A stretch of DNA of 64,000 bases from Squalus acanthias (Eukaryota): positions 62,001 to 126,000 of the forward strand of contig JASTWF010000329.1 of NCBI GenBank assembly GCA_030390025.1, read 5' to 3'. The translations under genes and the position numbers were made by a program. The notes beneath the pieces were generated by a model, which worked only from the letters and a program-made list of their open reading frames with translations, had not been told where the DNA came from and searched no databases. This document shows positions 8,641 to 64,000 of this stretch, piece by piece (within the stretch, counting starts at the first letter, position 1; every line of letters begins with the position of its first letter).

Positions 8641-8644
8641 TCTT

Positions 8645-31697: not shown

Positions 31698-31836
31698 TGA
31701 TGCGGAGATGCCGGTGTTGGACTGGGGTGGACAAAAATGAGAAGTCGCACAACACCAGGTTATAGTCCAACAGTTTTATTTGAAATCACAAGCTTTCGGA
31801 GCCCTGCTCCTTCGTCAGGTGAAGTGAAAAAATACC
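31698..31836 (-). mobile_element. Solo PLE family A pLTR with hammerhead motif and 11-bp TSD
   Basis: tcaaataactg at 31687-31697 and 31837-31847; homologous to 40086-40220; hammerhead motif 31786-31822 on the minus strand. Confidence 0.9.
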
Positions 31837-39700: not shown

Positions 39701-40082
39701 TTACTCTGTATCTAACCCATGCTGGACCTGCCCTGGGAGTGTTTGATGGGACAGTATCGAGGGGCCTTTACTCTGTATCTAACCCGTGCTGCACCTGCCC
39801 TGGGAGTGTTTGCTGGGACAATGTCGAGGGAGCTTTGCTCTGTATCTAAACCATGCTGTACGTGCCCAAGGAGTGTTTATGGGATAGTGTAAAGGGAGCT
39901 TTGCTCTGTATTTAACCCATGCTGTACCTGCCCTGGGAGTGTTTGATGGGACAGTGTAGAGGGAGCTTAACTCGGTATCTAACCCATGCTGTACCTGCCC
40001 TGGGAGTGTTTGATGGGACAGTGTAGAGGGAGCTTTACTCTGTATCTAACCCGTGCTGAACCTGCCCTGGGATGTTTGATGG
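36717..40082 (+). repeat. 67-bp satellite array (left part)
   Basis: Same unit as 3196-8640; interrupted by a PLE insertion. Confidence 0.98.
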
Positions 40083-40174
40083 TCATGATGCGGAGATGCC
40101 GGTTGTTGGACTGGGGTGGACAAATTTGAGAGGTCGCACAACACCAGGTTATAGTCCAACAGTTTTATTTGAAA

Positions 40175-40216
40175 TCACAAGCTTTCGGAGCTATCGATTG
40201 CCCCTTCCTCAGGTGA
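40175..40216 (-). ncRNA. Minimal hammerhead ribozyme motif (inverted pLTR copy)
   Basis: Reverse complement of 42714-42755. Confidence 0.75.
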
Positions 40217-41786
40217 AGTAAATAGATACAGAATCGCCAAAGCATATATAGATAGAGAACAAAGCATATGTTCCTTACAATTGCAGACAACTAAATTAAA
40301 TCATCCTGACTATCTGCCGAGGTGTGTTAAAGTTAATCAGGTCAGCCAGGAAGGTACCACATCAAAGACATAGCAAGATACAACTGAGACAATGAGGTGT
40401 AGTCGCAGGGGTTCTAACGTGTCAAAAGCTGCCGTCTGTATGTAAAACGAAAAGCTTTAAAATTTTTACTTTTTTACTGGGAAAATTTTTACTTTTTTAC
40501 TGGGAACCAGCTTCTGTCGCAACACTACAGACTTCTTACAGAAACTCAGCACCCACGGACCAGTTGAACCAGGAACACTCCTCGCCACGATGGACGTATC
40601 GGCACTCTACGCCAGTATCCCCCACGATGACGGCATCGCTGCGACAGCCTCAGTACTCAACACCAACAACAGCCAATCTCCAGACGCCATCCTACAACTC
40701 ATCCGCTTCATCCTTGACCACAATGTCTTCACCTTCGACAACCATTTTTTTACCCAAACACACGGAACAGCCATGGGGACCAAATTCGCACCCCAATACG
40801 CCAACATCTTCATGCACAAGTTCGAGTAAGACTTCTTCGCTGCACAGGACCTCCAGCCAACGCTGTACACCAGATACATCGACGACATTTTCTTCCTTTG
40901 GACCCATGGCGAAGGATCACTGAAAAGACTACACGATAACATAAACAAGTTCCATCCCACCATCAAACTCACCATGGACTACTCCTCAGAATCGGTTTCA
41001 TTCCTGGACACATGAATCTCCATCAAAGACGGACACCTCAGCACTTCACTCTACCGCAAGCCCACGGACAACCTCACGATGCTCCACTTCTCCAGCTTCC
41101 ACCCTAACCATGTTAAAGAAGCCATCCCCTATGGACAAGCCCTGCGAATACACAGGATCTGCTCAGACGAGGAGGAACGCGATGGACACCTACGGACGCT
41201 GAAAAACGCCCTCGTAAGAACGGGATATGACGCTCGACTCATCGATCGACAATTCCGACGGGCCACAGCGAAAAATCGCATAGACCTCCTCAGAAGGCAA
41301 ACACGGGACACAACCAACAGGGTACCCTACGTCGTCCAGTACTTCCCCGGAGCGGAGAAACTACGCCATGTTCTTCGCAGCCTTCAACATGTCATCGATG
41401 ACGACAAACACCTCGCTAAGGCCATCCCCACGCCTCCACTACTTGCCTTCAAACAGCCGCCTAACCTCAGAAGTACCATCGTTCGCAGCAAATTACCCAG
41501 CTTTCAGGATAACAGCGACCACGACACCACACAACCCTGCCACGGCAAACTCTGCAAGACATGCCAGATCATCAACACAGATACCACCATCACACGTGAG
41601 GACACTACCCACCAGGTACATGGTACATACTCATGTGACTCGGCCAACGTTGTCTACCTCATACGTTGCAGGAAAGAATGCACCGCGGCATGGTACATCG
41701 GCGAGACCATGCAGACACTGAGACAACGTATGAACGAGCACCGCGCAACAATCGCCAGGCAGGATTGTTACCTCCCAGTCGGGGAA

Positions 41787-42210
41787 CATAGAAACATAGA
41801 AACATAGAATCTAGGAGCAGGAGTAGGCCATTCGGCCCGTCGAGCCTGCTCCACCATTCAATACGATCATGGCTGATCATCCAAATCCAGTACCCTGTCC
41901 CTGCTTTAATCCCCACAGTACACATATCCCACCCTACCCCCGTAACCCCACATATTTAATTCCCCCTAACATATCCCATCCTATCCCCATAACCCCACAT
42001 ATTTAATACCCCCCTAACACTAAGGGTCAATTTATCATAGCCAAATCAACCTAACCCGCACATTTTTGGACTGTGGGAGGAAACCGGAGCACCCGGAGGA
42101 AACCCACGCAGACACGGGGAGAATGTGCAAACTCCACACAGACAGTCACCCGAGGTCAGATTCGAACCCGGGTCCCTGGCGCTGTGAGGCACCAGTGCTA
42201 ACCACTATGA
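41787..42210 (-). mobile_element. V-SINE (HE1-like) joined to a CR1 3' end, inserted in the PLE ORF
   Basis: SINE ~41914-42209 matches 24700-24937; CR1 tail ~41787-41913 matches 25590-25710; PLE frame resumes ggggaa|cacttcagc. Confidence 0.88.
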
Positions 42211-42713
42211 CACTTCAGCAGTCAAGGACATTCAGCCTCAGATCTGCGGGTAAGCGTTCTCCAAGGCAACCTTAGAAACACACGACAACGCAAAATCATC
42301 GAGCAGAAACTGATAGCCAAGTTCCGCACTCATGAAGACGGTCTCAACCGGGATCTTGGGTTTATGTCACGATACATGACGTGATCCGGACTCGAGTCGT
42401 CGTTGGCTTGTTCACAGATGTGATTCCCAGTAAAAAAGTAAAAATTTTCCCAGTAAAAAAGTAAAAATTTTAAAGCTTTTCGTTTTACATACAGACGGCA
42501 GCTTTTGACACGTTAGAACCCCTGCGACTACACCTCATTGTCTCAGTTGTATCTTGCTATGTCTTTGATGTGGTACCTTCCTGGCTGACCTGATTAACTT
42601 TATCACACCTCGGCAGATAGTCAGGATGATTTAATTTAGTTGTCTGCAATTGTAAGGTACACATGCTTTGTTCTCTATCTATATATACTTTGGCGATTCT
42701 GTATCTATTTACT

Positions 42714-42755
42714 TCACCTGAGGAAGGGGCAATCGATAGCTCCGAAAGCTTGTGA
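42714..42755 (+). ncRNA. Minimal hammerhead ribozyme motif in PLE-A 3' pLTR
   Basis: tcac-CTGAGGA-a-ggggc-aatcgata-gctcc-GAAA-gctt-gtga: stem I tcac/gtga, stem II ggggc/gctcc, palindromic aagctt stem III, CUU cleavage triplet. Confidence 0.75.
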
Positions 42756-42803
42756 TTTCAAATAAAACTGTTGGACTATAACCTGGTGTTGTGCGACCTC
42801 TCA

Positions 42804-46097: not shown

Positions 46098-46134
46098 AGT
46101 TAACGTTTCAGGTCGATGACCTTTCATCAGAACT
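46098..46134 (-). ncRNA. Minimal hammerhead ribozyme motif of PLE-B
   Basis: Minus strand agtt-CTGATGA-a-aggtc-atc-gacct-GAAA-cgtt-aact; palindromic aacgtt stem III, GUU cleavage triplet. Confidence 0.8.
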
Positions 46135-46405
46135 GGGAAGAGCCGGAAATCAAATAGATTTAAGGCCAGGGTAAAGCTGGGAAAAGGGGGAGGGGATAAA
46201 GGAACAAAGGGGGAGATGAAGAGACATTAAGAGACATTAAGAGATATGCAAGGCTAGAGGTGGTGTTAATGTGACAGATTAAGGCTGAATGAAGTGTGAA
46301 ATCCACTGGCAGAATGAAGGACAGCTGCCAGCTTCTAGGAGAAAAAAAAAGGTGGGGGGGGGGGGGACAAATAAAAATAAAATATAAATGTGATTGGAGC
46401 TGAGG

Positions 46406-49294: not shown

Positions 49295-49606
49295 NNNNNN
49301 NNNNNNNNNNNNNNNNNNNNNNNNNNNNNNNNNNNNNNNNNNNNNNNNNNNNNNNNNNNNNNNNNNNNNNNNNNNNNNNNNNNNNNNNNNNNNNNNNNNN
49401 NNNNNNNNNNNNNNNNNNNNNNNNNNNNNNNNNNNNNNNNNNNNNNNNNNNNNNNNNNNNNNNNNNNNNNNNNNNNNNNNNNNNNNNNNNNNNNNNNNNN
49501 NNNNNNNNNNNNNNNNNNNNNNNNNNNNNNNNNNNNNNNNNNNNNNNNNNNNNNNNNNNNNNNNNNNNNNNNNNNNNNNNNNNNNNNNNNNNNNNNNNNN
49601 NNNNNN
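49295..49606. other. Assembly gap (312 N)
   Basis: Run of n. Confidence 1.
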
Positions 49607-49890
49607 GACGGAGGGAGCGGAGTATTGGACGGCAAGTGGGCGGGGAGGCTTCATAAATAACTAGTATAGGCCGCAAGCCCCAAATAATAACCTGAAGGTC
49701 CCGCGTTTGCAGCTTCGGGGCTTCTCCCGGTCACAGACCAGGCTAACGGCCGCCATCTTGATTCAGTGAGTAACAAAACGCATGCGCGGTCATCTTGATA
49801 TGACTCAAAGAGTGGGCGGGGCTTCCGTATCTGTTCCCCACCGGGTCCTTGTGCCCGGGTCAGTAAACCTTTGACTCAGTTATTTGAGGT
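49607..49890 (+). promoter_or_regulatory. Promoter/5' region of a ZNF-B paralog (inverted duplicate of ~31835-32116)
   Basis: Near-identical reverse complement; YY1 gccgccatcttg 49749-49760; GC box ~49814. Confidence 0.8.
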
Positions 49891-49901
49891 ATTTTTTCAC
49901 T

Positions 49902-49938
49902 TCACCTGACGAAGGAGCAGGGCTCCGAAAGCTTGTGA
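49902..49938 (+). ncRNA. Minimal hammerhead ribozyme motif in the pLTR hit by Tx1
   Basis: tcac-CTGACGA-a-ggagc-agg-gctcc-GAAA-gctt-gtga. Confidence 0.8.
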
Positions 49939-50055
49939 TTTCAAATAAAACTGCTGGACTATAACCTGGTGTTGATCTTTTTGGTTGCACAAATCAGGTT
50001 GGACAAATCAAAATTTACTGTAAATCAATTAAAACTTGAAATGAAACTTAATAAA

Positions 50056-53000
50056 TCAAATTAAAATTTGAAAGTCCGGGGTGACGATGCACTCCAGTCC
50101 CCGCGGCGCCCACCGGTCGCGGAAAAACTCAAGCGTGCCGGCGGACACCGCGTGCTCCATCTCCAGGGCCACCCGGGCGCGAACATGGCCGCGGAAGAGA
50201 GGCAGGCAATCGGGCCGAACGACCCCCTCGACCGCCCGCTGCCTGGACCAATTAATGGCTTTCTTGGCCAGGCCCAGGAGCAGTCCTACGAGGAGGTCCT
50301 CCGACCTACCCGCTCCCCTCCGCACCGGGTGACCGTAGATCAGGAGCGTGGGACTGAAGTGCAACCAGAAATTGAGGAGCAGCCCCTTCAAATAATGAAA
50401 GAGGGGCTGCAACCTCTCACATTCAACATAAATGTGATAAACGGACTCCTCCAGGCCGCAAAAATGGCAAGCAGCCTGGGAGTCCGTAAACCTACTTAAA
50501 ATCCTATTGCACGGGACTGCTCCGTGCAACACCCTCCAGGCCAAGTCCCCAATAGAACAAGGGAAGACTCCCGCGTAGAGAGCCTTCCAATGGGGACCTT
50601 CGCCTCCGCCGGACGGCAGGATGGTACGCCAAGGCGTGTCCGGACGGCAGACGAAGATGGCAAAGTGGAGAGTGTGCAGGAGCAGCCCGTACAGGAAACG
50701 CCTCCGTGCGGATTGAAAGGGCACGGAGGGCATTTCTCCGAGAAGGCTCAAGTGGTGAGGCGGCGGCTCCCGAGGGAGGATTCGGGGCCGGGCGCCGATA
50801 AGGAATTCCGTCCGAACGGGGGTCAGTTCGGACGGGATCGCCCCACGTGCTTGAGCCTCCTCGACACACCTAGTGGAGACGGGGCCCAGTGCCACTTTTA
50901 GCGACTCGATGGCTTTGACCGCGAGCCGGACGTTGACCCAGGACATGCGCCTCGCCAACTCCTCCGGCGCCATCCAGCCCGCTCCTCCGCCATCGAGCAG
51001 GTCCCCGACTCTGGTCACCTTACCGGGCACAGCCCTGCCCTCCGCCAGCCAGCCGAACCCGCGGTCGTGGAGGTGCGGATTCCTGAACAGCGGCTCCCGA
51101 AGGACGGCCGCCGCTCCTGACGGGGGAGAACTGCGCTCGGAGGCGACGCTGTTCCAAACCCATAGCAGTTCCTGGTAGAAGACAGGCAGCTCCCGCAGGC
51201 TGGCACGCGTGCCACCCACTCTCACAAACAGGAGCTGCGTGTCGTAATTGAGGCCGTGCAGCTGGCGGAAGAAATACGTCGCCAGCGCACGCCACCTAGG
51301 AGGATTCTCCACGTACAGGTATCTCTGCAGCGTCTGAAGACGGAAAGTCGCCGCCTGGGTGCGAAGGCACACCAGCGCCTGACCGCCCTCCCTAAGCGGG
51401 AGACTCAAAACCGTGGCAGAGACCCAGTGCTTCCTTTTGTCCCAGAAGAAGTCGACGAGCTTCTTCTGCATCTTGGCGACAAACGCAGGGGGAGGGATCA
51501 AAGTGACCAACCGGTACCACAACATGGCGGCCACCAGCTGGTTTATGACCAGCGCTCGACCCCTGTAGGACAACACTCGGAGCAGTCCTGTCCAGCGCCC
51601 TAGGCGAGCGGTGACTTTGGCCTCCAGCTCCAGCCAGTTCGCCGGCCAGGCGTCCTCGGCCGGGCTGAGGTAGACTCCCAGGTAGAGGAGGTGCGTGGTG
51701 CTCCAGGCGAAAGGCCCGAACTCCTCCGGCAGGGAGTCCACCTGCCATGGGCCCACCAGGAGTCCAGAACATTTCTCCCAGTTGATCTTGGCGGAGGATG
51801 CGTCCGAGTAAATCTGCTGGCATTCTCGCATCCTCCGCAAGTCGACGGGATCCGTGACCGCGAGGAGCACGTCATCGGCGTAAGCCGAGAGGACCACCTC
51901 CACGCCCGGCCCTTGCAGAGCCAGTCCCGTCAACCTCTTCCGCAAGAGGCGCAGGAAAGGCTCCACGCAAACGGCGTATAACTGACCGGACATGGGGCAT
52001 CCCTGACGCACCCCCCTCCCGAAGCGAAGGGGCGCCGTCAAAGACCCGTTAACTTTAATCAGACACTCCGCGGCGGCGTACAGAAGTCGGATCCGGGCGA
52101 CGAAATGCGTCCCGAACCCGAATGCGCGCAGAGTCCCGAAAAGATACTCGTGATCCACCCTGTCGAACGCCTTCTCCTGATCCAGGGAAAGGAAGGCGAC
52201 CGACAGACCAGCCCTCTGGGAATGGTGGACCAGGTCCCGGACCAGATGGATGTTATCGTGGATACTCCGGCCCGGGACCGTGTAGGACTGGTCGGGGTGG
52301 ATCATGCGGGCCAGCACGGTGCCAAGGCGAGCAGACATAGCCCTGGCGAAAATTTTGTAGTCCGTGCTGAGGAGGGAGACCGGGCGCCAGTTCTTAAGTA
52401 GGCGGAGATCGCCCTTCTTGGGCAGCAGGACGATGACCGCCCTGCGCCAAGAGAGGGGCATCTCCCCGGTCGCCAGACTTTCCCCCAGGACCCGCGCGTA
52501 GTCGTCCCCCAAGACGTCCCAGAACGCCCTGTGGAACTCCACGGTCAGCCCGTCCAGCCCCGGGGACTTGCCCCTCGAGAGCTGGCGCAGGGCGCCGGTC
52601 AGCTCCGCCAGGCTTAGCGGAGCTTCTAAATTCTCGGCGCCCTCCGGGCCGACCTTCGGCAGGTCCTCCCACAAAACTCTGCGCGCATCCTCGCTGGACG
52701 GATCCGAAGAGAACAGAGCCCCGTAATAGGCCCGGGCCTCCGCGCTGATGCCCTCCGGATCCGAGACCAGAGATCCGTCGTCGGCCAGCAGCCCCAAGAG
52801 CTGCTTACGGACCCCCCGTCTTTTTTCCAGCGAGTAGAAGAAGGGGGAGCCGCGGTCCAGGTCCCGCAGGAGCTGGATCCGCGACCTCACGTACGCGCCT
52901 CGGGACCCGACCAGCTGCAGGTCCTTCAGCACGCCCTTCTTCTCTTCGTACACCTTCCGCAGGGCCGGGTCCTCGACGACTTGACCGAGACGGGACTCCA

Positions 53001-53955
53001 GGTCGAGCACTTCTTTCTCCAATCGCCCGACCCGGGCCTCCCGTCTCTTGGTCGACCCCTTCGCGTACTCCTGACAGAAGACGCGGACGTGAGCCTTGCC
53101 CACGTCCCACCATAGCCTCAAGGAGGGGAAGCCTCCCCGCTTCCTTCTCCAGTCGGCCCAGAACCGGCGAAACGAATCCCGGAACCGCGCGTCCTCCAGC
53201 AGCAGGTTGTTAAAATGCCAGTACGCGGAACCCCCCCGCGCGCGCAGCGGAGCGAGCTCCGCCCACACCAGGTGGTGGTCCGTGCACGGCACCGGCCGCA
53301 TGGAAGCCGCCGGAACGCAGGAGACGTACGCCCGGGAAATGTAAAGGCGGTCGATTCTGGACCTTCCTCCTCCAGACCTCACGCTCGTGAAGGCGCTGGA
53401 GTCGGGATGGAGATTTCGCCAGACGTCCACCAAGTCGAAGGACCCGACCAGGTCCCGCAACTTCTCCATCGCCGCCGGGCTTCGCGGGGGACCCGACCGG
53501 TCCCGCGCCTCGAGGGTACAATTGAAATCCCCCCCGAGGATGACGCACTCGCCCACGTCGATGGAGCCCAGAAGAGCGGACACTTCTCCGAAGAAGCGCA
53601 CTTGCTGCGCACCGGTCCGGGGGGCGTACACGTTCACTAAATGGAGTGGCACGCCTCCCAGGCGAACAGTGACCTGGAGCAAGCGGCCCGGCACGTGCTC
53701 CTTGACCCTCAAGATCTCCGGCTGAAAATGCGGGGCCAGCAAGACAGCCACCCCGCAGGAATTGTTGGAGAGGTGACTCATGCTGACCCCTCCTTGCCAC
53801 TCCAGGAGCCACGTGGCCTCGTCTCCCGGAACGGTGTGGGTTTCTTGCAGGAAGCACACCGCATATTTCCCGTCCCGAAGGACCGAGAAGTTATTGAATC
53901 TACGGCGCGCCTCCCTGCTGCCGTTGATGTTGAGGCTGGCTATGGTTATCTTCAT
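50056..53955 (-). CDS. Tx1 ORF2: APE endonuclease + RT + C-terminal zinc motif
   Basis: SLNING, FLQETH, GGDFN, SRIDR, TDH; KSPGLDG, DQEKAFDRV, GVRQGCPMS, YADD; CHFCGLEESVYHIYVEC. Confidence 0.97.
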   Translation of the reverse strand: MKITIASLNINGSREARRRFNNFSVLRDGKYAVCFLQETHTVPGDEATWLLEWQGGVSMSHLSNNSCGVAVLLAPHFQPEILRVKEHVPGRLLQVTVRLGGVPLHLVNVYAPRTGAQQVRFFGEVSALLGSIDVGECVILGGDFNCTLEARDRSGPPRSPAAMEKLRDLVGSFDLVDVWRNLHPDSSAFTSVRSGGGRSRIDRLYISRAYVSCVPAASMRPVPCTDHHLVWAELAPLRARGGSAYWHFNNLLLEDARFRDSFRRFWADWRRKRGGFPSLRLWWDVGKAHVRVFCQEYAKGSTKRREARVGRLEKEVLDLESRLGQVVEDPALRKVYEEKKGVLKDLQLVGSRGAYVRSRIQLLRDLDRGSPFFYSLEKRRGVRKQLLGLLADDGSLVSDPEGISAEARAYYGALFSSDPSSEDARRVLWEDLPKVGPEGAENLEAPLSLAELTGALRQLSRGKSPGLDGLTVEFHRAFWDVLGDDYARVLGESLATGEMPLSWRRAVIVLLPKKGDLRLLKNWRPVSLLSTDYKIFARAMSARLGTVLARMIHPDQSYTVPGRSIHDNIHLVRDLVHHSQRAGLSVAFLSLDQEKAFDRVDHEYLFGTLRAFGFGTHFVARIRLLYAAAECLIKVNGSLTAPLRFGRGVRQGCPMSGQLYAVCVEPFLRLLRKRLTGLALQGPGVEVVLSAYADDVLLAVTDPVDLRRMRECQQIYSDASSAKINWEKCSGLLVGPWQVDSLPEEFGPFAWSTTHLLYLGVYLSPAEDAWPANWLELEAKVTARLGRWTGLLRVLSYRGRALVINQLVAAMLWYRLVTLIPPPAFVAKMQKKLVDFFWDKRKHWVSATVLSLPLREGGQALVCLRTQAATFRLQTLQRYLYVENPPRWRALATYFFRQLHGLNYDTQLLFVRVGGTRASLRELPVFYQELLWVWNSVASERSSPPSGAAAVLREPLFRNPHLHDRGFGWLAEGRAVPGKVTRVGDLLDGGGAGWMAPEELARRMSWVNVRLAVKAIESLKVALGPVSTRCVEEAQARGAIPSELTPVRTEFLIGARPRILPREPPPHHLSLLGEMPSVPFQSARRRFLYGLLLHTLHFAIFVCRPDTPWRTILPSGGGEGPHWKALYAGVFPCSIGDLAWRVLHGAVPCNRILSRFTDSQAACHFCGLEESVYHIYVECERLQPLFHYLKGLLLNFWLHFSPTLLIYGHPVRRGAGRSEDLLVGLLLGLAKKAINWSRQRAVEGVVRPDCLPLFRGHVRARVALEMEHAVSAGTLEFFRDRWAPRGLECIVTPDFQILI

Positions 53956-53980
53956 CTCAGAAGCATAGTGCAACCTCTAC

Positions 53981-56131
53981 CTAACGGAGGGGAGGGAGCG
54001 CGGTCACTGACGACCGCCACTCCCTCAGCAGCCCAGTGTGGAAGCTCTTGAGCCGACGCAGCTCGAGCCGGCCAACGTCCTTGTCCGCGCCCATGATTTT
54101 AACGGCGGCGCGGACGGACACGACGAGCAGCGCCAGCTCCGACCACTTGTCGAGGGCCAGCCGGATCTTCTTGTGACGACCCTGGCTCACGGCCATAAAA
54201 TCCCGGAGTTCCCCTACGGGGATGAGGGGAGAGTCGGTGAAGGGCACGAGGGCGTCCATCGCCTCGCTGCCGATGGACTCCAAATCGTCCTCGTTGCCCA
54301 ACACCGAGTCCCCGTCCTCCTCCGGGAGGTCGTCACCGGCGGCCGACCCGTCCGTCACACAGGGTGCAGCGAACGGCTCGGCCGCACCGGCCGGCCCCGC
54401 CTCCGTCACGATCCCACCCCCAGGATCGGTGGCAGAGGAGTCCACCCTGGGCTCCTTCAGGGGCGCCGGGCCGGGAGGCGGCGGCGGCGGTTCGGGGCCC
54501 CCCCCCGCCTCAGGCGCCGGGGCGACCGGAGAAACCGGGGAGAAAATAATCCCAAATTCCTCCAGCACGTCCGGCGCCAACAACAGAGACGGAATCAGGG
54601 GGCTTTCCGCCTCCCCGCCACCAACCTCCAACCCAGCGGGCTGGGGATTGCTACACTCCTCCACCAGGTCGAGCAGTCCCTGGGAGATGTCTGGGTTATA
54701 AAAGGCGGGCTCGGCTTCAGCCTCTTTGGCCTCGCCCGCCCCAGTCCCCAGGACGCCCGACCCGGCGAGGAGCAACGGTTCCAGAACTACATTTCCCTCC
54801 GCGGGTTGTTCCGCGCCCCCCCCCACGGGCAGGGTCTCTTCCCCATCCCCGGGAGGCACAGGTCGGACAGACTCGGCTGTCTCACCCTCCCGAGGGACAG
54901 ACAACCCCTGCCGATCGCGCGCGACGATGACGGTGGTGGGGTGGGGCGCAGCACCCGCGGCGGGCGACTGCCCCCCTTTTGCGGAGGGACCTTCCTCCTC
55001 GCAGTCCTCCTGCTGGGGGCGGAGCTTTCTTTTTAACGTATTGGGGCCCGGAGAGGGGGAGGCCTCCATGTCTGCTGGGGCCTCCCTCTCTGCCCCCTTC
55101 CGACGACTGGGTTTCTTGGGCCCCTCGGGCCCGAGCCCGGCCGCAGGTCTTGATTCAGCTGCCTCAGCAGTTGCGGTCACGGGCCCGGGCACGAGGACCC
55201 CCCCAGTCTCATGCGTCCCGACCAACTCCGCGATATACTCGGGCGTGAGTTCGGTCAACTCCAATGTTTCCTCCGTGAGGGGATCCGCCCTTAGATGTTT
55301 ATTTTTCCTACGCGCCTTCCTTCCCCCCGGACGCTCTCCCTCCTCCCCGCCGGAGGCCGTGGTGGTGTTGGCCTCCGATTTCGACCGCGCATCCGTCGCC
55401 GTCGACGCGCGGACAGTATCAGGGGGAGGGGGGGCGGCGGCGCCAACCCTGGCCGCGCCAGGTGTCGTGGTGGCCTTGGAGGCGGGGCAGTTTTTGCGGA
55501 CGTGCCCCACCTCCTTACAGGCGTAGCACCGCACGCCGTCCGAGGTCCAGAAGACGCGGTGGGCGGTCCCCCCGTGGAGCACCGTGAACGCGCCGTCCGC
55601 GTCCTCCTCCCGCGCCAGCCGGACGAAAAGCTGGCGCCGGAAGGAGAAGACGTGCCGAAGGCTGGCTTCCCGGAAGCCGAGCGGGATGGGTGTGATCCCC
55701 GACCTCACCTCCCCCAGTTGACGTAGGTGGGGGAGGAGGAGCTCACCCGGAACAAAGGGCGGGACGTTGGAAACCACAATCCTTTGCGCGGTGGCCTCAA
55801 GGGGGTCCACCGGCAGGAAGGTCCCGCCCACGGTGAGCCCCTTCTCGATGGCCAGGGACACCGCCCGCTCCGACCCCAGGAAGAACACAGCCTTGCCGTA
55901 CATTTTAGAGGCGGCGACGATGGCTGAAGGGCCGACAACCCCAGCCATGGCTTTAACGCACGCCTCTATAGTCATGTTGGGGTGAGTGTAGCTCCTGACC
56001 CCATTCTTCCTCGTAAGGAGGGTAAAAGGTGACGGGGTAACAGGAGGACTCGTGGCTGCGGCCGTGGCCGCGGCTGCCACGCTCGCATACGTCCTCGCTG
56101 CCCCCGCCACCGACGAAGATGTACTCGCCAT
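53981..56131 (-). CDS. Tx1 ORF1: nucleic-acid-binding protein with CCHC knuckle and long low-complexity tail
   Basis: RIVVSNVPPFVP, HVFSFRRQ and CYACKEVGHVRKNC motifs typical of Tx1 ORF1; first ATG 56131. Confidence 0.93.
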   Translation of the reverse strand: MASTSSSVAGAARTYASVAAAATAAATSPPVTPSPFTLLTRKNGVRSYTHPNMTIEACVKAMAGVVGPSAIVAASKMYGKAVFFLGSERAVSLAIEKGLTVGGTFLPVDPLEATAQRIVVSNVPPFVPGELLLPHLRQLGEVRSGITPIPLGFREASLRHVFSFRRQLFVRLAREEDADGAFTVLHGGTAHRVFWTSDGVRCYACKEVGHVRKNCPASKATTTPGAARVGAAAPPPPDTVRASTATDARSKSEANTTTASGGEEGERPGGRKARRKNKHLRADPLTEETLELTELTPEYIAELVGTHETGGVLVPGPVTATAEAAESRPAAGLGPEGPKKPSRRKGAEREAPADMEASPSPGPNTLKRKLRPQQEDCEEEGPSAKGGQSPAAGAAPHPTTVIVARDRQGLSVPREGETAESVRPVPPGDGEETLPVGGGAEQPAEGNVVLEPLLLAGSGVLGTGAGEAKEAEAEPAFYNPDISQGLLDLVEECSNPQPAGLEVGGGEAESPLIPSLLLAPDVLEEFGIIFSPVSPVAPAPEAGGGPEPPPPPPGPAPLKEPRVDSSATDPGGGIVTEAGPAGAAEPFAAPCVTDGSAAGDDLPEEDGDSVLGNEDDLESIGSEAMDALVPFTDSPLIPVGELRDFMAVSQGRHKKIRLALDKWSELALLVVSVRAAVKIMGADKDVGRLELRRLKSFHTGLLREWRSSVTALPPLR

Positions 56132-57103
56132 AATGGAGGGTTCTTTAAGGGCTACACTCACCCCAAGTCACAGGCCTGAAGGTGTTAATGGCCTCGGTTT
56201 TTTTTTTTGTTTTCCCCTGAGCAGAGGGAGCTCTTAAATTGAAGGCACACCTCTCCCTTTAGTTGATTGAATTGGGAGAGGGGCCTTCTCCCCTCTGCTC
56301 AATGGGTACTTAATTAAAATAGATTGAGGTGCCTCTTAGAGAGAGAGGCAGAGAGAGACAAGAGACAAAGAGAGAGAGAGAGAGGGGGGTGGGAAGGAGG
56401 GAAGCCGCAAGGGCAGGGTCGCCACTCAGGATGGTGGGTGGGTGGGTGTTGGCAGGGGGGTGCACTCTCCGATGTAATACAAGTCTTTGGTGGTGGTCTT
56501 CTGGTGGGGGGAGAAGATGTCTTCACCTGGGATAGCTGGAGATGCCCAGGCTCAGTCCTGCACCAGGTCTTAACGATGCCCAATTGGATTAAATTAATTG
56601 GGGAACTTCACCTAGGCAGCTCCAGCTGTCCCAGGTCAGGCAATGGGAAAGGGGTGTTTAATATGGTGTGTGCGGCCTAGCTTTTACAGAAGCCACACAC
56701 ACACACGCCCCTTGGATGTTCCGGCCTTCTTCTTGTCTTCTTTCCTCCCCCCACCTACAAAACAAAGTCTCTGGGAGAGTGCCCCAGAATCACACCCACC
56801 TGTAGCTGATATTCTTTCCTTCCTTCCTCCTTCCAAACAGATGATGTTTTGTTGTTTTCTCCCCTCTCTCCCTCTCCTAAAATGGAGGCCAATTGAGGAG
56901 GCAGTGTGGAAAGGCCTCTCCTCTGTTGTTAATGGCCTTGGCCTTCCTTTCCTTCTTTTCCTTCTCCTCTCCTGTCCTCTCTCTCCAGGCACCTCAGTTG
57001 TGGATGTGTTGGTTGTTGGTGGTGGTCTGTTGGCTGGTCTCCTTCTCCTTCTCCTCTTCCTGCTCACAGAGACCACCACTCTGCTGCTGCTGCTGCTCAC
57101 CAC

Positions 57104-57149
57104 AAGCTCGTGATTTCAAATAAAGCTGTTGGACTATAACCTGGTGTTG
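57104..57149. repeat. 46-bp copy of the Penelope target sequence between the two Tx1 copies
   Basis: aagctcgtgatttcaaataaagctgttggactataacctggtgttg versus 49929-49974, 3 mismatches. Confidence 0.92.
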
Positions 57150-57217
57150 ATCTTTTTGGTTTGACAGAACGCAAATTTACTGTAAATCAATTAAAACTTG
57201 AAATGAAACTTAATAAA

Positions 57218-60200
57218 TCAAATTAAAATTTGAAAGTCCGGGGTGATGATGCACTCCAGTCCCCGCGGCGCCCACCGGTCGCGGAAAAACTCAAGCGTGC
57301 CGGCGGATACCGCGTGCTCCATCTCCAGGGCCACCCGGGCGCGAACATGGCCGCGGAAGAGAGGCAGGCAATCGGGCCGAACGACCCCCTCGACCGCCCG
57401 CTGCCTGGACCAATTAATGGCTTTCTTGGCCAGGCCCAGGAGCAGTCCTACGAGGAGGTCCTCTGACCTACCCGCTCCCCTCCGCACCGGGTGACCGTAG
57501 ATCAGGAGCGTGGGGCTGAAGTGCAACCAGAAATTGAGGAGCAGCCCCTTCAAATAATGAAAGAGGGGCTGCAACCTCTCACATTCAACATAAATGTGAT
57601 AAACGGACTCCTCCAGGCCGCAAAAATGGCAAGCAGCCTGGGAGTCCGTAAACCTACTTAAAATCCTATTGCACGGGACTGCTCCGTGCAACACCCTCCA
57701 GGCCAAGTCCCCAATAGAACAAGGGAAGACTCCCGCGTAGAGAGCCTTCCAATGGGGACCTTCGCCTCCGCCGGACGGCAGGATGGTACGCCAAGGCGTG
57801 TCCGGACGGCAGACGAAGATGGCAAAGTGGAGAGTGTGCAGGAGCAGCCCGTACAGGAAACGCCTCCGTGCGGATTGAAAGGGCACGGAGGGCATTTCTC
57901 CGAGAAGGCTCAAGTGGTGAGGCGGCGGCTCCCGAGGGAGGATTCGGGGCCGGGCGCCGATAAGGAATTCCGTCCGAACGGGGGTCAGTTCGGACGGGAT
58001 CGCCCCACGTGCTTGAGCCTCCTCGACACACCTAGTGGAGACGGGGCCCAGTGCCACTTTTAGCGACTCGATGGCTTTGACCGCGAGCCGGACGTTGACC
58101 CAAGACATGCGCCTCGCCAACTCCTCCGGCGCCATCCAGCCCGCTCCTCCGCCATCGAGCAGGTCCCCGACTCTGGTCACCTTACCGGGCACAGCCCTGC
58201 CCTCCGCCAGCCAGCCGAACCCGCGGTCGTGGAGGTGCGGATTCCTGAACAGCGGCTCCCGAAGGACGGCCGCCGCTCCTGACGGGGGAGAACTGCGCTC
58301 GGAGGCGACGCTGTTCCAAACCCATAGCAGTTCCTGGTAGAAGACAGGCAGCTCCCGCAGGCTGGCACGCGTGCCACCCACTCTCACAAACAGGAGCTGC
58401 GTGTCGTAATTGAGGCCGTGCAGCTGGCGGAAGAAATACGTCGCCAGCACACGCCACCTAGGAGGATTCTCCACGTACAGGTATCTCTGCAGCGTCTGAA
58501 GACGGAAAGTCGCCGCCTGGGTGCGAAGGCACACCAGCGCCTGACCGCCCTCCCTAAGCGGGAGACTCAAAACCGCGGCAGAGACCCAGTGCTTCCTTTT
58601 GTCCCAGAAGAAGTCGACGAGCTTCTTCTGCATCTTGGCGACAAACGCAGGGGGAGGGATCAAAGTGACCAACCGGTACCACAACATGGCGGCCACCAGC
58701 TGGTTTATGACCAGCGCTCGACCCCTGTAGGACAACACTCGGAGCAGTCCTGTCCAGCGCCCTAGGCGAGCGGTGACTTTGGCCTCCAGCTCTTGCCAGT
58801 TCGCCGGCCAGGCGTCCTCGGCCGGGCTGAGGTAGACTCCCAGGTAGAGGAGGTGCGTGGTGCTCCAGGCGAAAGGCCCGAACTCCTCCGGCAGGGAGTC
58901 CACCTGCCATGGGCCCACCAGGAGTCCAGAACATTTCTCCCAGTTGATCTTGGCGGAGGATGCGTCCGAGTAAATCTGCTGGCATTCTCGCATCCTCCGC
59001 AAGTCGACGGGATCCGTGACCGCGAGGAGCACGTCATCGGCGTAAGCCGAGAGGACCACCTCCACGCCCGGCCCTTGCAGAGCCAGTCCCGTCAACCTCT
59101 TCCGCAAGAGGCGCAGGAAAGGCTCCACGCAAACGGCGTATAACTGACCGGACATGGGGCATCCCTGACGCACCCCCCTCCCGAAGCGAAGGGGCGCCGT
59201 CAAAGACCCGTTAACTTTAATGAGACACTCCGCGGCGGCGTACAGAAGTCGGATCCGGGCGACGAAATGCGTCCCGAACCCGAATGCGCGCAGAGTCCCG
59301 AAAAGATACTCGTGATCCACCCTGTCGAACGCCTTCTCCTGATCCAGGGAAAGGAAGGCGACCGACAGACCAGCCCTCTGGGAATGGTGGACCAGGTCCC
59401 GGACCAGATGGATGTTATCGTGGATACTCCGGCCCGGGACCGTGTAGGACTGGTCGGGGTGGATCATGCGGGCCAGCACGGTGCCAAGGCGAGCAGACAT
59501 AGCCCTGGCGAAAATTTTGTAGTCCGTGCTGAGGAGGGAGACCGGGCGCCAGTTCTTAAGTAGGCGGAGATCGCCCTTCTTGGGCAGCAGGACGATGACC
59601 GCCCTGCGCCAAGAGAGGGGCATCTCCCCGGTCGCCAGACTTTCCCCCAGGACCCGCGCGTAGTCATCCCCCAAGACGTCCCAGAATGCCCTGTGGAACT
59701 CCACGGTCAGCCCGTCCAGCCCCGGGGACTTGCCCCTCGAGAGCTGGCGCAGGGCGCCGGTCAGCTCCGCCAGGCTTAGCGGAGCTTCTAAATTCTCGGC
59801 GCCCTCCGGGCCGACCTTCGGCAGGTCCTCCCACAAAACTCTGCGCGCATCCTCGCTGGACGGATCCGAAGAGAACAGAGCCCCGTAATAGGCCCGGGCC
59901 TCCGCGCTGATGCCCTCCGGATCCGAGACCAGAGATCCGTCGTCGGCCAGCAGCCCCAAGAGCTGCTTACGGACCCCCCGTCTTTTTTCCAGCGAGTAGA
60001 AGAAGGGGGAGCCGCGGTCCAGGTCCCGCAGGAACTGGATCCGCGACCTCACGTACGCGCCTCGGGACCCGACCAGCTGCAGGTCCTTCAGCGCGCCCTT
60101 CTTCTCTTCGTACACCTTCCGCAGGGCCGGGTCCTCGACGACTTGACCGAGACGGGACTCCAGGTCGAGCACTTCTTTCTCCAATCGCCCGACCCGGGCC

Positions 60201-61117
60201 TCCCGCCTCTTGGTCGACCCCTTCGCGTACTCCTGACAGAAGACGCGGACGTGAGCCTTGCCCACGTCCCACCATAGCCTCAAGGAGGGGAAGCCTCCCC
60301 GCTTCCTTCTCCAGTCGGCCCAGAACCGGCGAAACGAATCCCGGAACCGCGCGTCCTCCAGCAGCAGGTTGTTAAAATGCCAGTACGCGGACCCCCCCCG
60401 CGCGCGCAGCGGAGCGAGCTCCGCCCACACCAGGTGGTGGTCCGTGCACGGCACCGGCCGCATGGAAGCCGCCGGAACGCAGGAGACGTACGCCCGGGAA
60501 ATGTAAAGGCGGTCGATTCTGGACCTTCCTCCTCCAGACCTCACGCTCGTGAAGGCGCTGGAGTCGGGATGGAGATTTCGCCAGACGTCCACCAAGTCGA
60601 AGGACCCGACCAGGTCCCGCAACTTCTCCATCGCCGCCGGGCTTCGCGGGGGACCCGACCGGTCCCGCGCCTCGAGGGTACAATTGAAATCCCCCCCGAG
60701 GATGACGCACTCGCCCACGTCGATGGAGCCCAGAAGAGCGGACACTTCTCCGAAGAAGCGCACTTGCTGCGCACCGGTCCGGGGGGCGTACACGTTCACT
60801 AAATGGAGCGGCACGCCTCCCAGGCGAACAGTGACCTGGAGCAAGCGGCCCGGCACGTGCTCCTTGACCCTCAAGATCTCCGGCTGAAAATGCGGGGCCA
60901 GCAAGACAGCCACCCCGCAGGAATTGTTGGAGAGGTGACTCATGCTGACCCCTCCTTGCCACTCCAGGAGCCACGTGGCCTCGTCTCCCGGAACGGTGTG
61001 GGTTTCTTGCAGGAAGCACACCGCATATTTCCCGTCCCGAAGGACCGAGAAGTTATTGAATCTACGGCGCGCCTCCCTGCTGCCGTTGATGTTGAGGCTG
61101 GCTATGGTTATCTTCAT
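57218..61117 (-). CDS. Tx1 ORF2 (copy 2)
   Basis: Same motifs as copy 1; only a handful of amino-acid differences. Confidence 0.97.
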   Translation of the reverse strand: MKITIASLNINGSREARRRFNNFSVLRDGKYAVCFLQETHTVPGDEATWLLEWQGGVSMSHLSNNSCGVAVLLAPHFQPEILRVKEHVPGRLLQVTVRLGGVPLHLVNVYAPRTGAQQVRFFGEVSALLGSIDVGECVILGGDFNCTLEARDRSGPPRSPAAMEKLRDLVGSFDLVDVWRNLHPDSSAFTSVRSGGGRSRIDRLYISRAYVSCVPAASMRPVPCTDHHLVWAELAPLRARGGSAYWHFNNLLLEDARFRDSFRRFWADWRRKRGGFPSLRLWWDVGKAHVRVFCQEYAKGSTKRREARVGRLEKEVLDLESRLGQVVEDPALRKVYEEKKGALKDLQLVGSRGAYVRSRIQFLRDLDRGSPFFYSLEKRRGVRKQLLGLLADDGSLVSDPEGISAEARAYYGALFSSDPSSEDARRVLWEDLPKVGPEGAENLEAPLSLAELTGALRQLSRGKSPGLDGLTVEFHRAFWDVLGDDYARVLGESLATGEMPLSWRRAVIVLLPKKGDLRLLKNWRPVSLLSTDYKIFARAMSARLGTVLARMIHPDQSYTVPGRSIHDNIHLVRDLVHHSQRAGLSVAFLSLDQEKAFDRVDHEYLFGTLRAFGFGTHFVARIRLLYAAAECLIKVNGSLTAPLRFGRGVRQGCPMSGQLYAVCVEPFLRLLRKRLTGLALQGPGVEVVLSAYADDVLLAVTDPVDLRRMRECQQIYSDASSAKINWEKCSGLLVGPWQVDSLPEEFGPFAWSTTHLLYLGVYLSPAEDAWPANWQELEAKVTARLGRWTGLLRVLSYRGRALVINQLVAAMLWYRLVTLIPPPAFVAKMQKKLVDFFWDKRKHWVSAAVLSLPLREGGQALVCLRTQAATFRLQTLQRYLYVENPPRWRVLATYFFRQLHGLNYDTQLLFVRVGGTRASLRELPVFYQELLWVWNSVASERSSPPSGAAAVLREPLFRNPHLHDRGFGWLAEGRAVPGKVTRVGDLLDGGGAGWMAPEELARRMSWVNVRLAVKAIESLKVALGPVSTRCVEEAQARGAIPSELTPVRTEFLIGARPRILPREPPPHHLSLLGEMPSVPFQSARRRFLYGLLLHTLHFAIFVCRPDTPWRTILPSGGGEGPHWKALYAGVFPCSIGDLAWRVLHGAVPCNRILSRFTDSQAACHFCGLEESVYHIYVECERLQPLFHYLKGLLLNFWLHFSPTLLIYGHPVRRGAGRSEDLLVGLLLGLAKKAINWSRQRAVEGVVRPDCLPLFRGHVRARVALEMEHAVSAGTLEFFRDRWAPRGLECIITPDFQILI

Positions 61118-61142
61118 CTCAGAAGCATAGTGCAACCTCTAC

Positions 61143-63293
61143 CTAACGGAGGGGAGGGAGGGCGGTCACTGACGACCGCCACTCCCTCAGCAGCCCAGTG
61201 TGGAACGTCTTGAGCCGACGCAGCTCGAGCCGGCCAACGTCCTTGTCCGCGCCCATGATTTTAACGGCGGCGCGGACGGACACGACGAGCAGCGTCAGCT
61301 CCGACCACTTGTCGAGGGCCAGCCGGATCTTCTTGTGACGACCCTGGCTCATGGCCATAAAATCCCGGAGTTCCCCTACGGGGATGAGGGGAGAGTCGGT
61401 GAAGGGCACGAGGGCGTCCATCGCCTCGCTGCCGATGGACTCCAAATCGTCCTCGATGCCCCCCACCGAGTCCCCGTCCTCCTCCGGGAGGTCGTCACCG
61501 GCGGCCAACCCGTCCGTCACACAGGGTGCAGCGAACGGCTCGGCCGCACCGGCCGGCCCCGCCTCCGTCACGATCCCACCCCCAGGATCGGTGGCAGAGG
61601 AGTCCACCCTGGGCTCCTTCAGGGGCGCCGGGCCGGGAGGCGGCGGCGGCGGTTCGGGGCCCCCCCCCGCCTCAGGCGCCGGGGCGACCGGAGAAACCGG
61701 GGAGAAAATAATCCCAAATTCCTCCAGCACGTCCGGCGCCAACAACAGAGACGGAGTCAGGGGGCTTTCCGTCTCCCCGCCACCAACCTCCGACCCAGCG
61801 GGCTGGGGATTGCTACACTCCTCCACCAGGTCGAGCAGTCCCTGGGAGATATCTGGGTTATAAAAGGCGGGCTCGGCTTCAGCCTCTTTGGCCTCGCCCG
61901 CCCCAGTCCCCAGGACGCCCGACCCGGCGAGGAGCAACGGTTCAGGTTCTACATTTTCTTCCGCGGGTTGTTCCGCGCCCCCCCCCACGGGCAGGGTCTC
62001 TTCCCCATCCCCGGGAGGCACAGGTCGGACAGACTCGGCTGTCTCACCCTCCCGAGGGACAGACGACCCCTGCCGATCGCGCGCGACGATGACGGTGGTG
62101 GGGTGGGGCGCAGCACCCGCGGCGGGCGACTGCCCCCCTTTTGCGGAGGGACCTTCCTCCTCGCAGTCCTCCTGCTGGGGGCGGAGCTTTCTTTTTAACG
62201 TATTGGGGCCCGGAGAGGGGGAGGCCTCCATGTCTGCTGGGGCCTCCCTCTCTGCCCCCTTCCGACGACTGGGTTTCTTGGGCCCCTCGGGCCCGAGCCC
62301 GGCCGCAGGTCTTGATTCAGCTGCCTCAGCAGTTGCGGTCACGGTCACGGGCCCGGGCACGAGGACCCCCCCAGTCTCATGCGTCCCGACCAACTCCGCG
62401 ATATACTCGGGCGTGAGTTCGGCCAATTCAGATGTTTCCTCCGCGAGGGGATCCGCCCTTATGTGTTTATTTTTCCTACGCGCCTTCCTTCCCCCCGGAC
62501 GCTCTCCCTCCTCCCCGCCGGAGGCCGTGGTGGTGTTGGCCTCCGATTCCGACCGCGCATCCGTCGCCGTGCGGACAGCATCAGGGGGAGGGGGGGTGGC
62601 GGCGCCAACCCTGGCCGCGCCAGGTGTCGTGGCGGCCTTGGAGGCGGGGCAGTTTTTGCGGACGTGCCCCACCTCCTTACAGGCGTAGCACCGCACGCCG
62701 TCCGAGGTCCAGAAGACGCGGTGGGCGGTCCCCCCGTGGAGCACCGTGAACGCGCCGTCCGCGTCCTCCTCCCGCGCCAGCCGGACGAAAAGCTGGCGCC
62801 GGAAGGAGAAGACGTGCCGAAGGCTGGCTTCCCGGAAGCCGAGCGGGATGGGTGTGATCCCCGACCTCACCTCCCCCAGTTGACGTAGGTGGGGGAGGAG
62901 GAGCTCACCCGGAACAAAGGGCGGGACGTTGGAAACCACAATCCTTTGCGCGGTGGCCTCAAGGGGGTCCACCGGCAGGAAGGTCCCGCCCACGGTGAGC
63001 CCCTTCTCGATGGCCAGGGACACCGCCCGCTCCGACCCCAGGAAGAACACAGCCTTGCCGTACATTTTAGAGGCGGCGACGATGGCTGAAGGGCCGACAA
63101 CCCCAGCCATGGCTTTTACACACGCCTCTATAGTCATGTTGGGGTGAGTGTAGCTCTTGACCCCATTCTTCCTCGTAAGGAGGGTAAAAGGTGACGGGGT
63201 AACAGGAGGACTCGTGGCTGCGGCCGTGGCCGCGGCTGCCACGCTTGCGTACGTCCTCGCTGCCCCCGCCACCGACGAAGATGTACTCGCCAT
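61143..63293 (-). CDS. Tx1 ORF1 (copy 2)
   Basis: Same CCHC knuckle; compensating in-frame indels relative to copy 1. Confidence 0.93.
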   Translation of the reverse strand: MASTSSSVAGAARTYASVAAAATAAATSPPVTPSPFTLLTRKNGVKSYTHPNMTIEACVKAMAGVVGPSAIVAASKMYGKAVFFLGSERAVSLAIEKGLTVGGTFLPVDPLEATAQRIVVSNVPPFVPGELLLPHLRQLGEVRSGITPIPLGFREASLRHVFSFRRQLFVRLAREEDADGAFTVLHGGTAHRVFWTSDGVRCYACKEVGHVRKNCPASKAATTPGAARVGAATPPPPDAVRTATDARSESEANTTTASGGEEGERPGGRKARRKNKHIRADPLAEETSELAELTPEYIAELVGTHETGGVLVPGPVTVTATAEAAESRPAAGLGPEGPKKPSRRKGAEREAPADMEASPSPGPNTLKRKLRPQQEDCEEEGPSAKGGQSPAAGAAPHPTTVIVARDRQGSSVPREGETAESVRPVPPGDGEETLPVGGGAEQPAEENVEPEPLLLAGSGVLGTGAGEAKEAEAEPAFYNPDISQGLLDLVEECSNPQPAGSEVGGGETESPLTPSLLLAPDVLEEFGIIFSPVSPVAPAPEAGGGPEPPPPPPGPAPLKEPRVDSSATDPGGGIVTEAGPAGAAEPFAAPCVTDGLAAGDDLPEEDGDSVGGIEDDLESIGSEAMDALVPFTDSPLIPVGELRDFMAMSQGRHKKIRLALDKWSELTLLVVSVRAAVKIMGADKDVGRLELRRLKTFHTGLLREWRSSVTALPPLR

Positions 63294-64000
63294 AATGGAG
63301 GGTTCTTTAAGGGCTACACTCACCCCAAGTCACAGGCCTGAAGGTGTTAATGGCCTCGGTTTTTTTTTTGTTTTCCCCCGAGCAGAGGGAGCTCTTAAAT
63401 TGAAGGCACACCTCTCCCTTTAGTTGATTGAATTGGGAGAGGGGCCTTCTCCCCTCTGCTCAATGGGTACTTAATTAAAATAGATTGAGGTGCCTCTTAG
63501 AGAGAGAGGCAGAGAGAGACAAGAGACAAAGAGAGAGAGAGAGAGGGGGGTGGGAAGGAGGGAAGCCGCAAGGGCAGGGTCGCCACTCAGGATGGTGGGT
63601 GGGTGGGTGTTGGCAGGGGGGTGCACTCTCCGATGTAATACAAGTCTTTGGTGGTGGTCTTCTGGTGGGGGGAGAAGATGTCTTCACCTGGGATAGCTGG
63701 AGATGCCCAGGCTCAGTCCTGCACCAGGTCTTAACGATGCCCAATTGGATTAAATTAATTGGGGAACTTCACCTAGGCAGCTCCAGCTGTCCCAGGTCAG
63801 GCAATGGGAAAGGGGTGTTTAATATGGTGTGTGCGGCCTAGCTTTTACAGAAGCCACACACACACACGCCCCTTGGATGTTCCGGCCTTCTTCTTGTCTT
63901 CTTTCCTCCCCCCACCTACAAAACAAAGTCTCTGGGAGAGTGCCCCAGAATCACACCCACCTGTAGCTGATATTCTTTCCTTCCTTCCTCCTTCCAAACA

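What the first reader, a model, noticed from the sequence alone, without database searches (positions are those of the whole stretch)
57095..57160. 46-bp target copy between tandem Tx1 elements: long TSD or an element that carries its own landing site
Seen: the spacer matches 49929-49974 but with 3 mismatches in 46 bp, visibly more than the two ORF2 copies differ. It stops at the aagct(t/c) palindrome of the hammerhead. Inference: a fresh TSD should be identical, so the spacer may be part of the element's 5' end, captured from another pLTR. Each insertion would then regenerate a target and build head-to-tail arrays. Unequal recombination between insertions at different pLTRs is an alternative.
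Basis: partly seen in the sequence, partly recalled or inferred. Interest (0 to 1): 0.75.

Follow-up and report, generated by a model that had tools for sequence, protein, structure and literature searches.

The report
LINE head copies its landing site
The 46 letters between two head-to-tail Tx1-type jumping genes come from a different copy of their landing site than the one they sit in, so they were probably brought along on the element's front end, a habit already described for an insect R2 element and seen here in another retrotransposon group.

Summary
Observation confirmed. The spacer 57104-57149 matches the 3' flank 49929-49974 at 43 of 46 bases and lies between two intact Tx1-clade copies (ORF2 50% identical to Xenopus TX1) in a Penelope-like hammerhead tail. 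A plain target-site duplication (TSD) is unlikely. Two mismatches are private to the spacer and one to the flank. The spacer's G57125 is the allele of abundant free tails in three public runs (organisms A, B, C), whereas the flank has A. Three chance changes have P about 0.001-0.01 at ORF2 rates (0.06 at 2%). A head-to-tail junction also assembles in organism B. Best reading (0.55): an old duplication became the element's inherited 5' extension, travels in the RNA and pairs with the target during second-strand priming. My read-depth test of this was favourable in one run and inconclusive in another. No genome was held, so other junctions were not read. Recombination between insertions remains open (0.22). 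The mechanism has precedent: earwig R2 carries 22 bp of downstream target with three substitutions. Arrays need no carried copy, since R1 builds them on ordinary TSDs. The scan noted this before on another piece of this genome (e1-7851855). New variant of a known kind.

The parts
57104..57149 (-). 46-bp spacer: copy of the target sequence downstream of the nick site, at the 5' end of Tx1 copy 1 and the 3' end of copy 2. It carries G57125 (allele of abundant free tails) and C57109 (minority allele, makes a CpG).
49929..49974 (-). 3' flank of copy 1: the same 46 bp in the host tail, A-type, with one private letter (49954)
49902..49938 (+). Minimal hammerhead motif of the host Penelope-like repeat (stem I TCAC/GTGA, core, 5-bp stem II, AAGCTT palindrome). 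Predicted cut between 49934 and 49935 (inferred from the fold and recalled hammerhead numbering).
   Evidence: fold; architecture as in PMC4209133; Rfam found no hammerhead hit
49607..49974 (+). Host Penelope-like terminal repeat, cut by a 312-N gap on its left (49295-49606). It differs at 14 of 368 columns from the empty sister copy at 31750-32116.
49975..57103 (-). Tx1 copy 1, full length: 5' leader 56135-57103, ORF1 53981-56134 (zinc knuckle), ORF2 50056-53970 (endonuclease, RT, zf-RVT), 3' UTR with a duplicated 14-mer before the terminal 12-mer
57150..64000 (-). Tx1 copy 2: both ORFs open (ORF2 57218-61132, ORF1 61143-63296), with a different 3' tail. Its 5' end lies outside the window, expected near 64264 from the 7162-bp period.
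31698..31835 (+). Empty target: upstream half, nick site between 31749 and 31750, the 46-mer and the hammerhead, without a Tx1
40086..42803 (+). Decayed Penelope-like element (RT fragment, GIY-YIG) with inverted terminal arms. It holds two more empty tail copies (40139-40184, 42746-42791) and ties the tail to Penelope-like elements.

Best explanation
The spacer is an inherited 5' extension of the Tx1 element. Steps: (1) shown: the element inserts antisense at one base of a Penelope-like tail. (2) Inferred: an ancestral insertion into a G-type tail left a long duplication at its 5' side. (3) Inferred: transcripts start in or upstream of that duplication, so the RNA carries it. (4) Inferred by analogy with R2: after target-primed reverse transcription the cDNA end pairs with the target's top strand and primes the second strand, which writes the inherited letters into the new 5' junction while the 3' flank keeps the local letters. 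At this locus the inherited part reaches at least to 57129, so the true local duplication is at most 20 bp if 49954 predates the insertion. (5) Inferred: upstream half plus spacer rebuilds the nick site, and copy 2, from another source lineage, inserted there.
For: The spacer lacks both alleles that mark the local flank (A49950, shared with 4 of 4 other window tails; C49954, private). The host repeat is 14 of 368 diverged from its sister, far more than the element copies, so C49954 probably predates the insertion (inference). G57125 is not listed as a variant at the 4% threshold in X1, X4 or X13 although depth there is tens of times the element's, with loose ends running into the hammerhead and into the upstream target half. 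It is therefore an allele of abundant free tails, not an error or a new mutation. C57109 is rare in laid tails: non-T depth is 78,016 of 691,197 in X1, 34.9 of 942.3 in X4 and 0 of 657.4 in X13. In X1 it matches the depth implied just left of the spacer (83,534), and no T-bearing X1 contig has the site more than 15 columns from its end. T to C here creates a CpG, an unlikely fresh change (established mutation bias). ORF2 dS 0.0101 against dN 0.0024 (Fisher p 0.0035) says most copy differences arose in active lineages, so decay since insertion is small; P(3 or more of 46) is 0.0015-0.011. The two copies have different 3' tails, so they are not a fresh local duplication. Precedent: earwig R2.
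Against: No second 5' junction was read as sequence in this genome (no genome held). In X4 the same arithmetic gives 16.9 left of the spacer against 34.9 non-T, so C57109 cannot be tied to the element head there. The only contig that spans the junction (X4 record 18) appears to carry T at 57109, read from its from_end value of 46. Summed contig depths in X1 swing more than tenfold between neighbouring bins, so the match may be chance, and only about 55 in 100 of X1 was read. Copy 1's leader differs from the majority at 57004, 57030 and 57033 in X1 and X4. If local divergence is 2%, P(3 or more of 46) rises to 0.064. No RNA evidence: X21 laid 0 reads. Divergence between the copies is uneven (5' UTR 1 of 704, ORF1 36 of 2148, Fisher p 0.0007), which also fits recombination.
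Confidence: 0.55

Rival explanations
1. Recombination or array turnover. Spacer and flank were each ordinary duplications at two different tails. Unequal or ectopic exchange inside the 7-kb element (or an assembly mis-join through it) brought a 5' side from a G-type tail together with a 3' side in an A-type tail.
For: It explains all three mismatches. Divergence between the copies is patchy. The X4 tandem junction is one contig with its own linked 3'-end haplotype at depth 6.26 of 14.4, as expected of an amplified array unit. An N gap lies 320 bases from the flank.
Against: It does not explain why the rare C57109 depth tracks element-level depth in X1. It still needs a 46-bp cut stagger, whereas APE-type LINEs mostly give 10-20 bp (PMC6895275).
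Confidence: 0.22
2. The spacer came with copy 2 or with the pair. Read-through RNA from a source locus carried its 3' flank, or a two-copy array transcript was inserted as one unit into the A-type tail.
For: R1 transcripts often carry downstream target at their 3' end (PMC2718515). Tandem junctions exist as templates (X4 record 18).
Against: 3' target sequence in the RNA normally anneals and is not copied when priming is at the nick (inference from the same paper's model). A pair needs a cDNA of 14 kb or more. The spacer ends exactly at the element's first base with no extra local duplication.
Confidence: 0.12
3. Ordinary long TSD. Copy 1 made a 46-bp duplication, copy 2 inserted into the rebuilt site, and three later mutations or errors fell in the two copies of the 46-mer.
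For: Tandem insertions separated by a TSD are known for R1 and SINEU-3. Staggers up to 126 bp exist in R9. The case was picked after the fact, and at 2-4% local divergence P is 0.06-0.28.
Against: One change hits exactly the allele of an abundant tail family and another creates a CpG. P is 0.0015-0.011 at ORF2-based rates.
Confidence: 0.08

Closest known systems
R2 of the earwig Forficula auricularia (Eickbush et al. 2013, PMC3774820; passages read)
   Same: [quoted passage not shown] The paper explains it as junction variation carried in the RNA and propagated through a cDNA-target heteroduplex.
   Different: 22 bp against 46 bp. R2 targets 28S rDNA and (recalled) uses a restriction-like endonuclease; its RNA 5' end is made by its own HDV-like ribozyme. 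Here the element is an APE-type Tx1, the target is another retroelement's tail, no ribozyme was found on the element's strand and the transcript start is unknown.
R1 of Drosophila: tandem arrays and ISR junctions (Stage and Eickbush 2009, PMC2718515; passages read)
   Same: Head-to-tail arrays at one site, separated by target sequence and built by insertion into the 5' duplication. Melanogaster-type R1 RNAs carry 28S tags at the 5' end.
   Different: The R1 spacer is a 14-bp TSD, and its carried tags come from upstream of the site, not downstream.
Tx1L of Xenopus (in Tx1D) and crocodilian Tx1-Mar / SINEU (Kojima 2015, PMC4494074; passages and section 20 read)
   Same: Same clade: ORF2 is 650 of 1297 residues identical to the Xenopus TX1 149-kDa protein. 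They target other mobile elements. Tandem SINEU-3 copies sandwich a TSD, and SINEU-2B carries a 5' extension derived from its Mariner target.
   Different: Their targets are piggyBac, Mariner, Harbinger or LTR elements. A Penelope-like target did not appear in my searches. In the passages read, the target-derived 5' extension is reported for a SINE subfamily and is only weakly similar to the target.
R9 of rotifers (126-bp stagger, as cited in PMC6895275; primary paper not read)
   Same: A long direct repeat of target sequence on both sides of a site-specific LINE.
   Different: There it is described as a true duplication from a distant second cut; here the two repeats disagree at family-diagnostic letters.

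Membership tests
Tx1 clade LINE | ORF1 with zinc knuckle; ORF2 with APE-type endonuclease, RT and C-terminal zinc motif | tested here: met
   Pfam zf-CCHC (E 2e-4); Exo_endo_phos, RVT_1, zf-RVT
Tx1 clade LINE | ORF2 closest to Tx1-type proteins | tested here: met
   50% identity over 1297 residues to Xenopus TX1 149 kDa; it ranks third of 22 hits. No tree was built.
Tx1 clade LINE | Insertion at one fixed base of a repeated target | tested here: inconclusive
   2 of 2 3' junctions in the window and 2 listed X4 contigs (records 18, 19) join at the same base. No genome-wide count; earlier scan notes claim it but were not checked.
Ordinary target-site duplication | The two repeats are identical at insertion, including the local target's alleles | tested here: not met
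   43 of 46; the spacer lacks A49950 and C49954 and has a common foreign allele. Later mutation is improbable but not excluded.
Propagated 5' target duplication (earwig R2 type) | The 5' copy is of target sequence downstream of the nick and differs from the local target | tested here: met
Propagated 5' target duplication (earwig R2 type) | The same substitutions recur at independent 5' junctions | tested here: inconclusive
   Depth fits in X1, not in X4; the X4 spanning contig seems to have T57109; X13 has no contig across the junction
Propagated 5' target duplication (earwig R2 type) | The RNA template includes the target copy | not testable with these tools
Penelope-like terminal repeat with minimal hammerhead | Minimal hammerhead with palindromic helix III beside an RT + GIY-YIG frame | tested here: met
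   Fold; GIY-YIG at 41079-41804, E 5e-4, below Pfam's cut-off; description in PMC4209133. Rfam gave no hammerhead hit.
Penelope-like terminal repeat with minimal hammerhead | Self-cleavage at the predicted site | not testable with these tools
   Only a hint: one X1 contig joins 57149 back to 57110, the base after the predicted cut

The most novel reading that the evidence does not exclude
The family has adopted the Penelope tail as a working 5' module. The carried 46 nt is used at every insertion to pair with the displaced target strand and prime the second strand. This would make insertions precise and mostly full length (5' and 3' depths are similar in X4) and would keep a full-length landing site at the head of every copy, feeding arrays in several related species. 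It would be a natural APE-type LINE model, with built-in marker bases, for how the 5' end is joined and where the second strand is cut.
Probability: 0.3. Interest if true: 0.62.

Novelty: new variant of a known kind. Interest (0 to 1): 0.4.

Why it matters
Second-strand cleavage and 5' joining are the least understood steps of LINE insertion (PMC6895275). Here the target is polymorphic and very abundant. If the head copy is inherited, each insertion is a natural marker cross: the point where inherited letters give way to local letters maps the second cut and the heteroduplex, across many copies, from existing assemblies. It would also extend the earwig-R2 type of propagated target copy to an APE-type vertebrate LINE, and it warns that apparent long TSDs can be part of the element.

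Tried and rejected
No whole genome is held for this window, so copy 2's 5' junction and other copies could not be read. An exact-pattern scan for the element-head/spacer junction in metagenome contigs found 0 matches. A protein-profile scan of metagenome contigs kept 80 of 290 relatives (24-52% identity). None of the 80 matched the tail or the junction queries, and none showed a direct repeat more than 4 kb apart, so they give no comparison. Viral contigs held no relative. The raw RNA run X21 laid 0 reads, which is no test. Of 23 listed runs only 4 were laid. Rfam gave only 8 weak snoZ6 hits elsewhere in the window. The promoter scan is bacterial-type and uninformative. The + strand ORF 56643-57113 has no Pfam hit and was dismissed. 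The idea that the spacer acts as a hammerhead substrate half was tried by co-folding: spacer -12.0 and flank -13.0 kcal/mol, so no advantage. It lies on the strand opposite the Tx1 RNA and is not pursued. Assembly error as the source of G57125 was rejected; C57109 was supported only by summed non-T depth. Whether A-type tails are rare in the runs or are hidden by the laying method could not be decided; the argument needs only that G-type tails are abundant. Look-ups of earlier findings by sequence and among relatives returned nothing. Supplements were not read; junction alignments in the supplements of PMC4494074 could hold a Tx1 precedent.

Full report
Setting. The right end of the window holds two head-to-tail copies of a LINE on the minus strand, period 7162 bases. 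Both have open ORF1 and ORF2. Pfam finds a zinc knuckle in ORF1 and endonuclease, RT and zf-RVT in ORF2. ORF2 is 650 of 1297 residues identical to the Xenopus TX1 149-kDa protein. The most similar hit by identity is a Heterodontus protein (74% over 69% of the query), so the host is probably a cartilaginous fish (inference). Copy 1's 3' end joins a repeat whose empty sister lies at 31698-32116. The same tail occurs in both inverted arms of a decayed element with an RT fragment and a weak GIY-YIG hit at 40086-42803. The tail folds as a minimal hammerhead with a palindromic helix III, the form described for Penelope-like terminal repeats (PMC4209133, passages read). Rfam did not detect it.

Observation. 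The spacer 57104-57149 matches 49929-49974 at 43 of 46 bases. Its left edge is the hammerhead palindrome. A search allowing 10 substitutions found 6 copies of the 46-mer in the window. Against the 4 that are neither spacer nor flank, the spacer has two private letters (C57109, G57125) and the flank one (C49954). Two of the 4 are arms of one insertion. The element copies differ at 17 of 3915 bases in ORF2, 36 of 2148 in ORF1 and 1 of 704 in the part of the 5' UTR that both show.

Is it a TSD that decayed? ORF2 differences are biased to silent sites (dS 0.0101, dN 0.0024, Fisher p 0.0035), so most arose while the source lineages were active and decay in place is small. P(3 or more of 46) is 0.0015 at twice dN and 0.011 at dS. 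The host repeat differs from its sister at 14 of 368 columns, so C49954 probably predates the insertion, and a true 46-bp duplication would have copied it (inference). Against this: the case was chosen after the fact, and copy 1's leader departs from the majority of laid contigs at 57004, 57030 and 57033. At 2% local divergence P is 0.064 and at 4% it is 0.28.

Outside data. Twenty of 23 listed runs hold the stretch or part of it. I laid 4 of them on 56900-57450: X1 (organism A, about 55 in 100 read, possibly the source sample), X4 (organism B), X13 (organism C) and raw RNA X21, which laid 0 reads. Depth over the spacer is tens of times the element's in the three contig runs. Loose ends run left into a hammerhead and right into the upstream target half, so these are mostly free tails. 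Position 57125 is not listed as variant at the 4% threshold in any of them: G is the allele of an abundant tail family, while the window's other tails have A. I could not tell whether A-type tails are rare in these runs or missed by the laying. Either way the spacer's G is not a new mutation or an error.

Does the variant travel? At 57109 most laid depth has T. Non-T depth is 78,016 of 691,197 in X1, 34.9 of 942.3 in X4 and 0 of 657.4 in X13. In X1 this equals, within 10%, the depth implied for the 14 element bases left of the spacer (83,534), and no T-bearing contig has the site more than 15 columns from its end. That fits C on most element heads, but summed contig depths vary more than tenfold between bins. 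In X4 the same sum gives 16.9, which does not match 34.9. X4 record 18 (160 bases, depth 6.26) spans 57064-57230, so the head-to-tail junction exists in organism B; it makes up 6.26 of the 14.4 depth at 57150. Its from_end value implies T at 57109. C there forms a CpG, so T may be decay of an inherited C, but it may equally be a plain copy of a local target. X13 has no contig across the junction. The test is suggestive, not decisive.

The copies are not a local duplicate. Their 3' tails differ just before the shared terminal 12-mer: copy 1 has a duplicated 14-mer, copy 2 another sequence, and X4 record 18 a third. Divergence is uneven along the element (5' UTR against ORF1, Fisher p 0.0007). 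This may reflect selection or exchange between copies, and it keeps the recombination rival alive.

Mechanism. Best reading (0.55): an ancestral duplication became an inherited 5' extension. It is transcribed with the element; the cDNA end pairs with the target's top strand and primes the second strand; the 5' repeat gets inherited letters and the 3' flank keeps local ones. The upstream half plus the repeat rebuilds the nick site for the next copy. The anatomy and the allele mismatch are shown. Transcription through the spacer, the pairing step and the order of insertion are inferred. Rivals: recombination or mis-join (0.22), read-through or pair transfer (0.12), plain TSD (0.08).

What is known. 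In earwig R2 all 5' junctions carry 22 bp of target from downstream of the site, with three substitutions, and the authors explain this by propagation in the RNA through a heteroduplex (PMC3774820, passages read; lead from e1-7940689). R1 arrays are separated by the 14-bp TSD and arise by insertion into it, and some R1 RNAs carry target tags (PMC2718515, passages read). Tandem SINEU-3 copies sandwich a TSD and SINEU-2B has a target-derived 5' extension (PMC4494074, passages and section 20). APE-type LINEs mostly give 10-20 bp duplications and R9 gives 126 bp (PMC6895275, passages). Passages of PMC4640811, PMC3747384, PMC7650587 and PMC11167929 were read and add nothing on this point. In eight searches no listing or passage that I read described a Tx1 with a Penelope-like target or a Tx1 with an inherited downstream-target head. 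The library lacks most subscription papers and Repbase, and I read no supplements.

Earlier scan notes. The targeting was noted many times in this genome, and a carried 54-nt target copy was reported on another piece (e1-7851855). These are unchecked AI notes; I could not test their counts, and the length differs from the 46 seen here. One note starts 265 letters beyond the window, where the period puts copy 2's 5' end.

Verdict. Real, probably not a plain TSD, and most likely an inherited target copy. It works like the earwig R2 junction; membership of that kind is met for anatomy and open for recurrence and RNA content. New variant of a known kind, interest 0.4.

Noticed in passing
window 22869-22976: A tail-only inverted structure: the 46-mer ends at the same palindrome and then turns into the reverse complement of the upstream target half. 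The palindrome is thus also a breakpoint in a rearrangement with no Tx1 nearby.
   Followed up: partly
window 57110-57149 (run X1): One contig (depth 27.3) joins 57149 back to 57110 with 5 letters between, a tandem of the 40-bp tail that restarts at the base after the predicted hammerhead cut.
   Followed up: no
window 49987-50010 and 57162-57172: A short hypervariable segment 12 bases from the element's 3' end; three versions seen (copy 1, copy 2, X4 record 18). The last base before the target also varies (57150 A>C in 43% of X1 depth).
   Followed up: partly
window 57192 (runs X4, X13): A sister subfamily shares the ORF2 end but has another 3' extension that does not run into this tail within the letters shown; it may use another target.
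   Followed up: no
window 44694-49294: A second Penelope-like family in partial tandem (44694-46114 repeats 47878-49294 at 98.5%) with an open RT + GIY-YIG frame at 46406-48148, directly left of the N gap.
   Followed up: no
window 3163-8645, 19700-21420, 36700-40082, 42803-44486: Arrays of a repeat of about 67 bp; two of them flank the Penelope-like element at 40086-42803.
   Followed up: no
window 29095-30222 and related repeats near 2300-2960, 21770-22530, 35650-36330: Multi-finger C2H2 zinc-finger frames in duplicated blocks.
   Followed up: no
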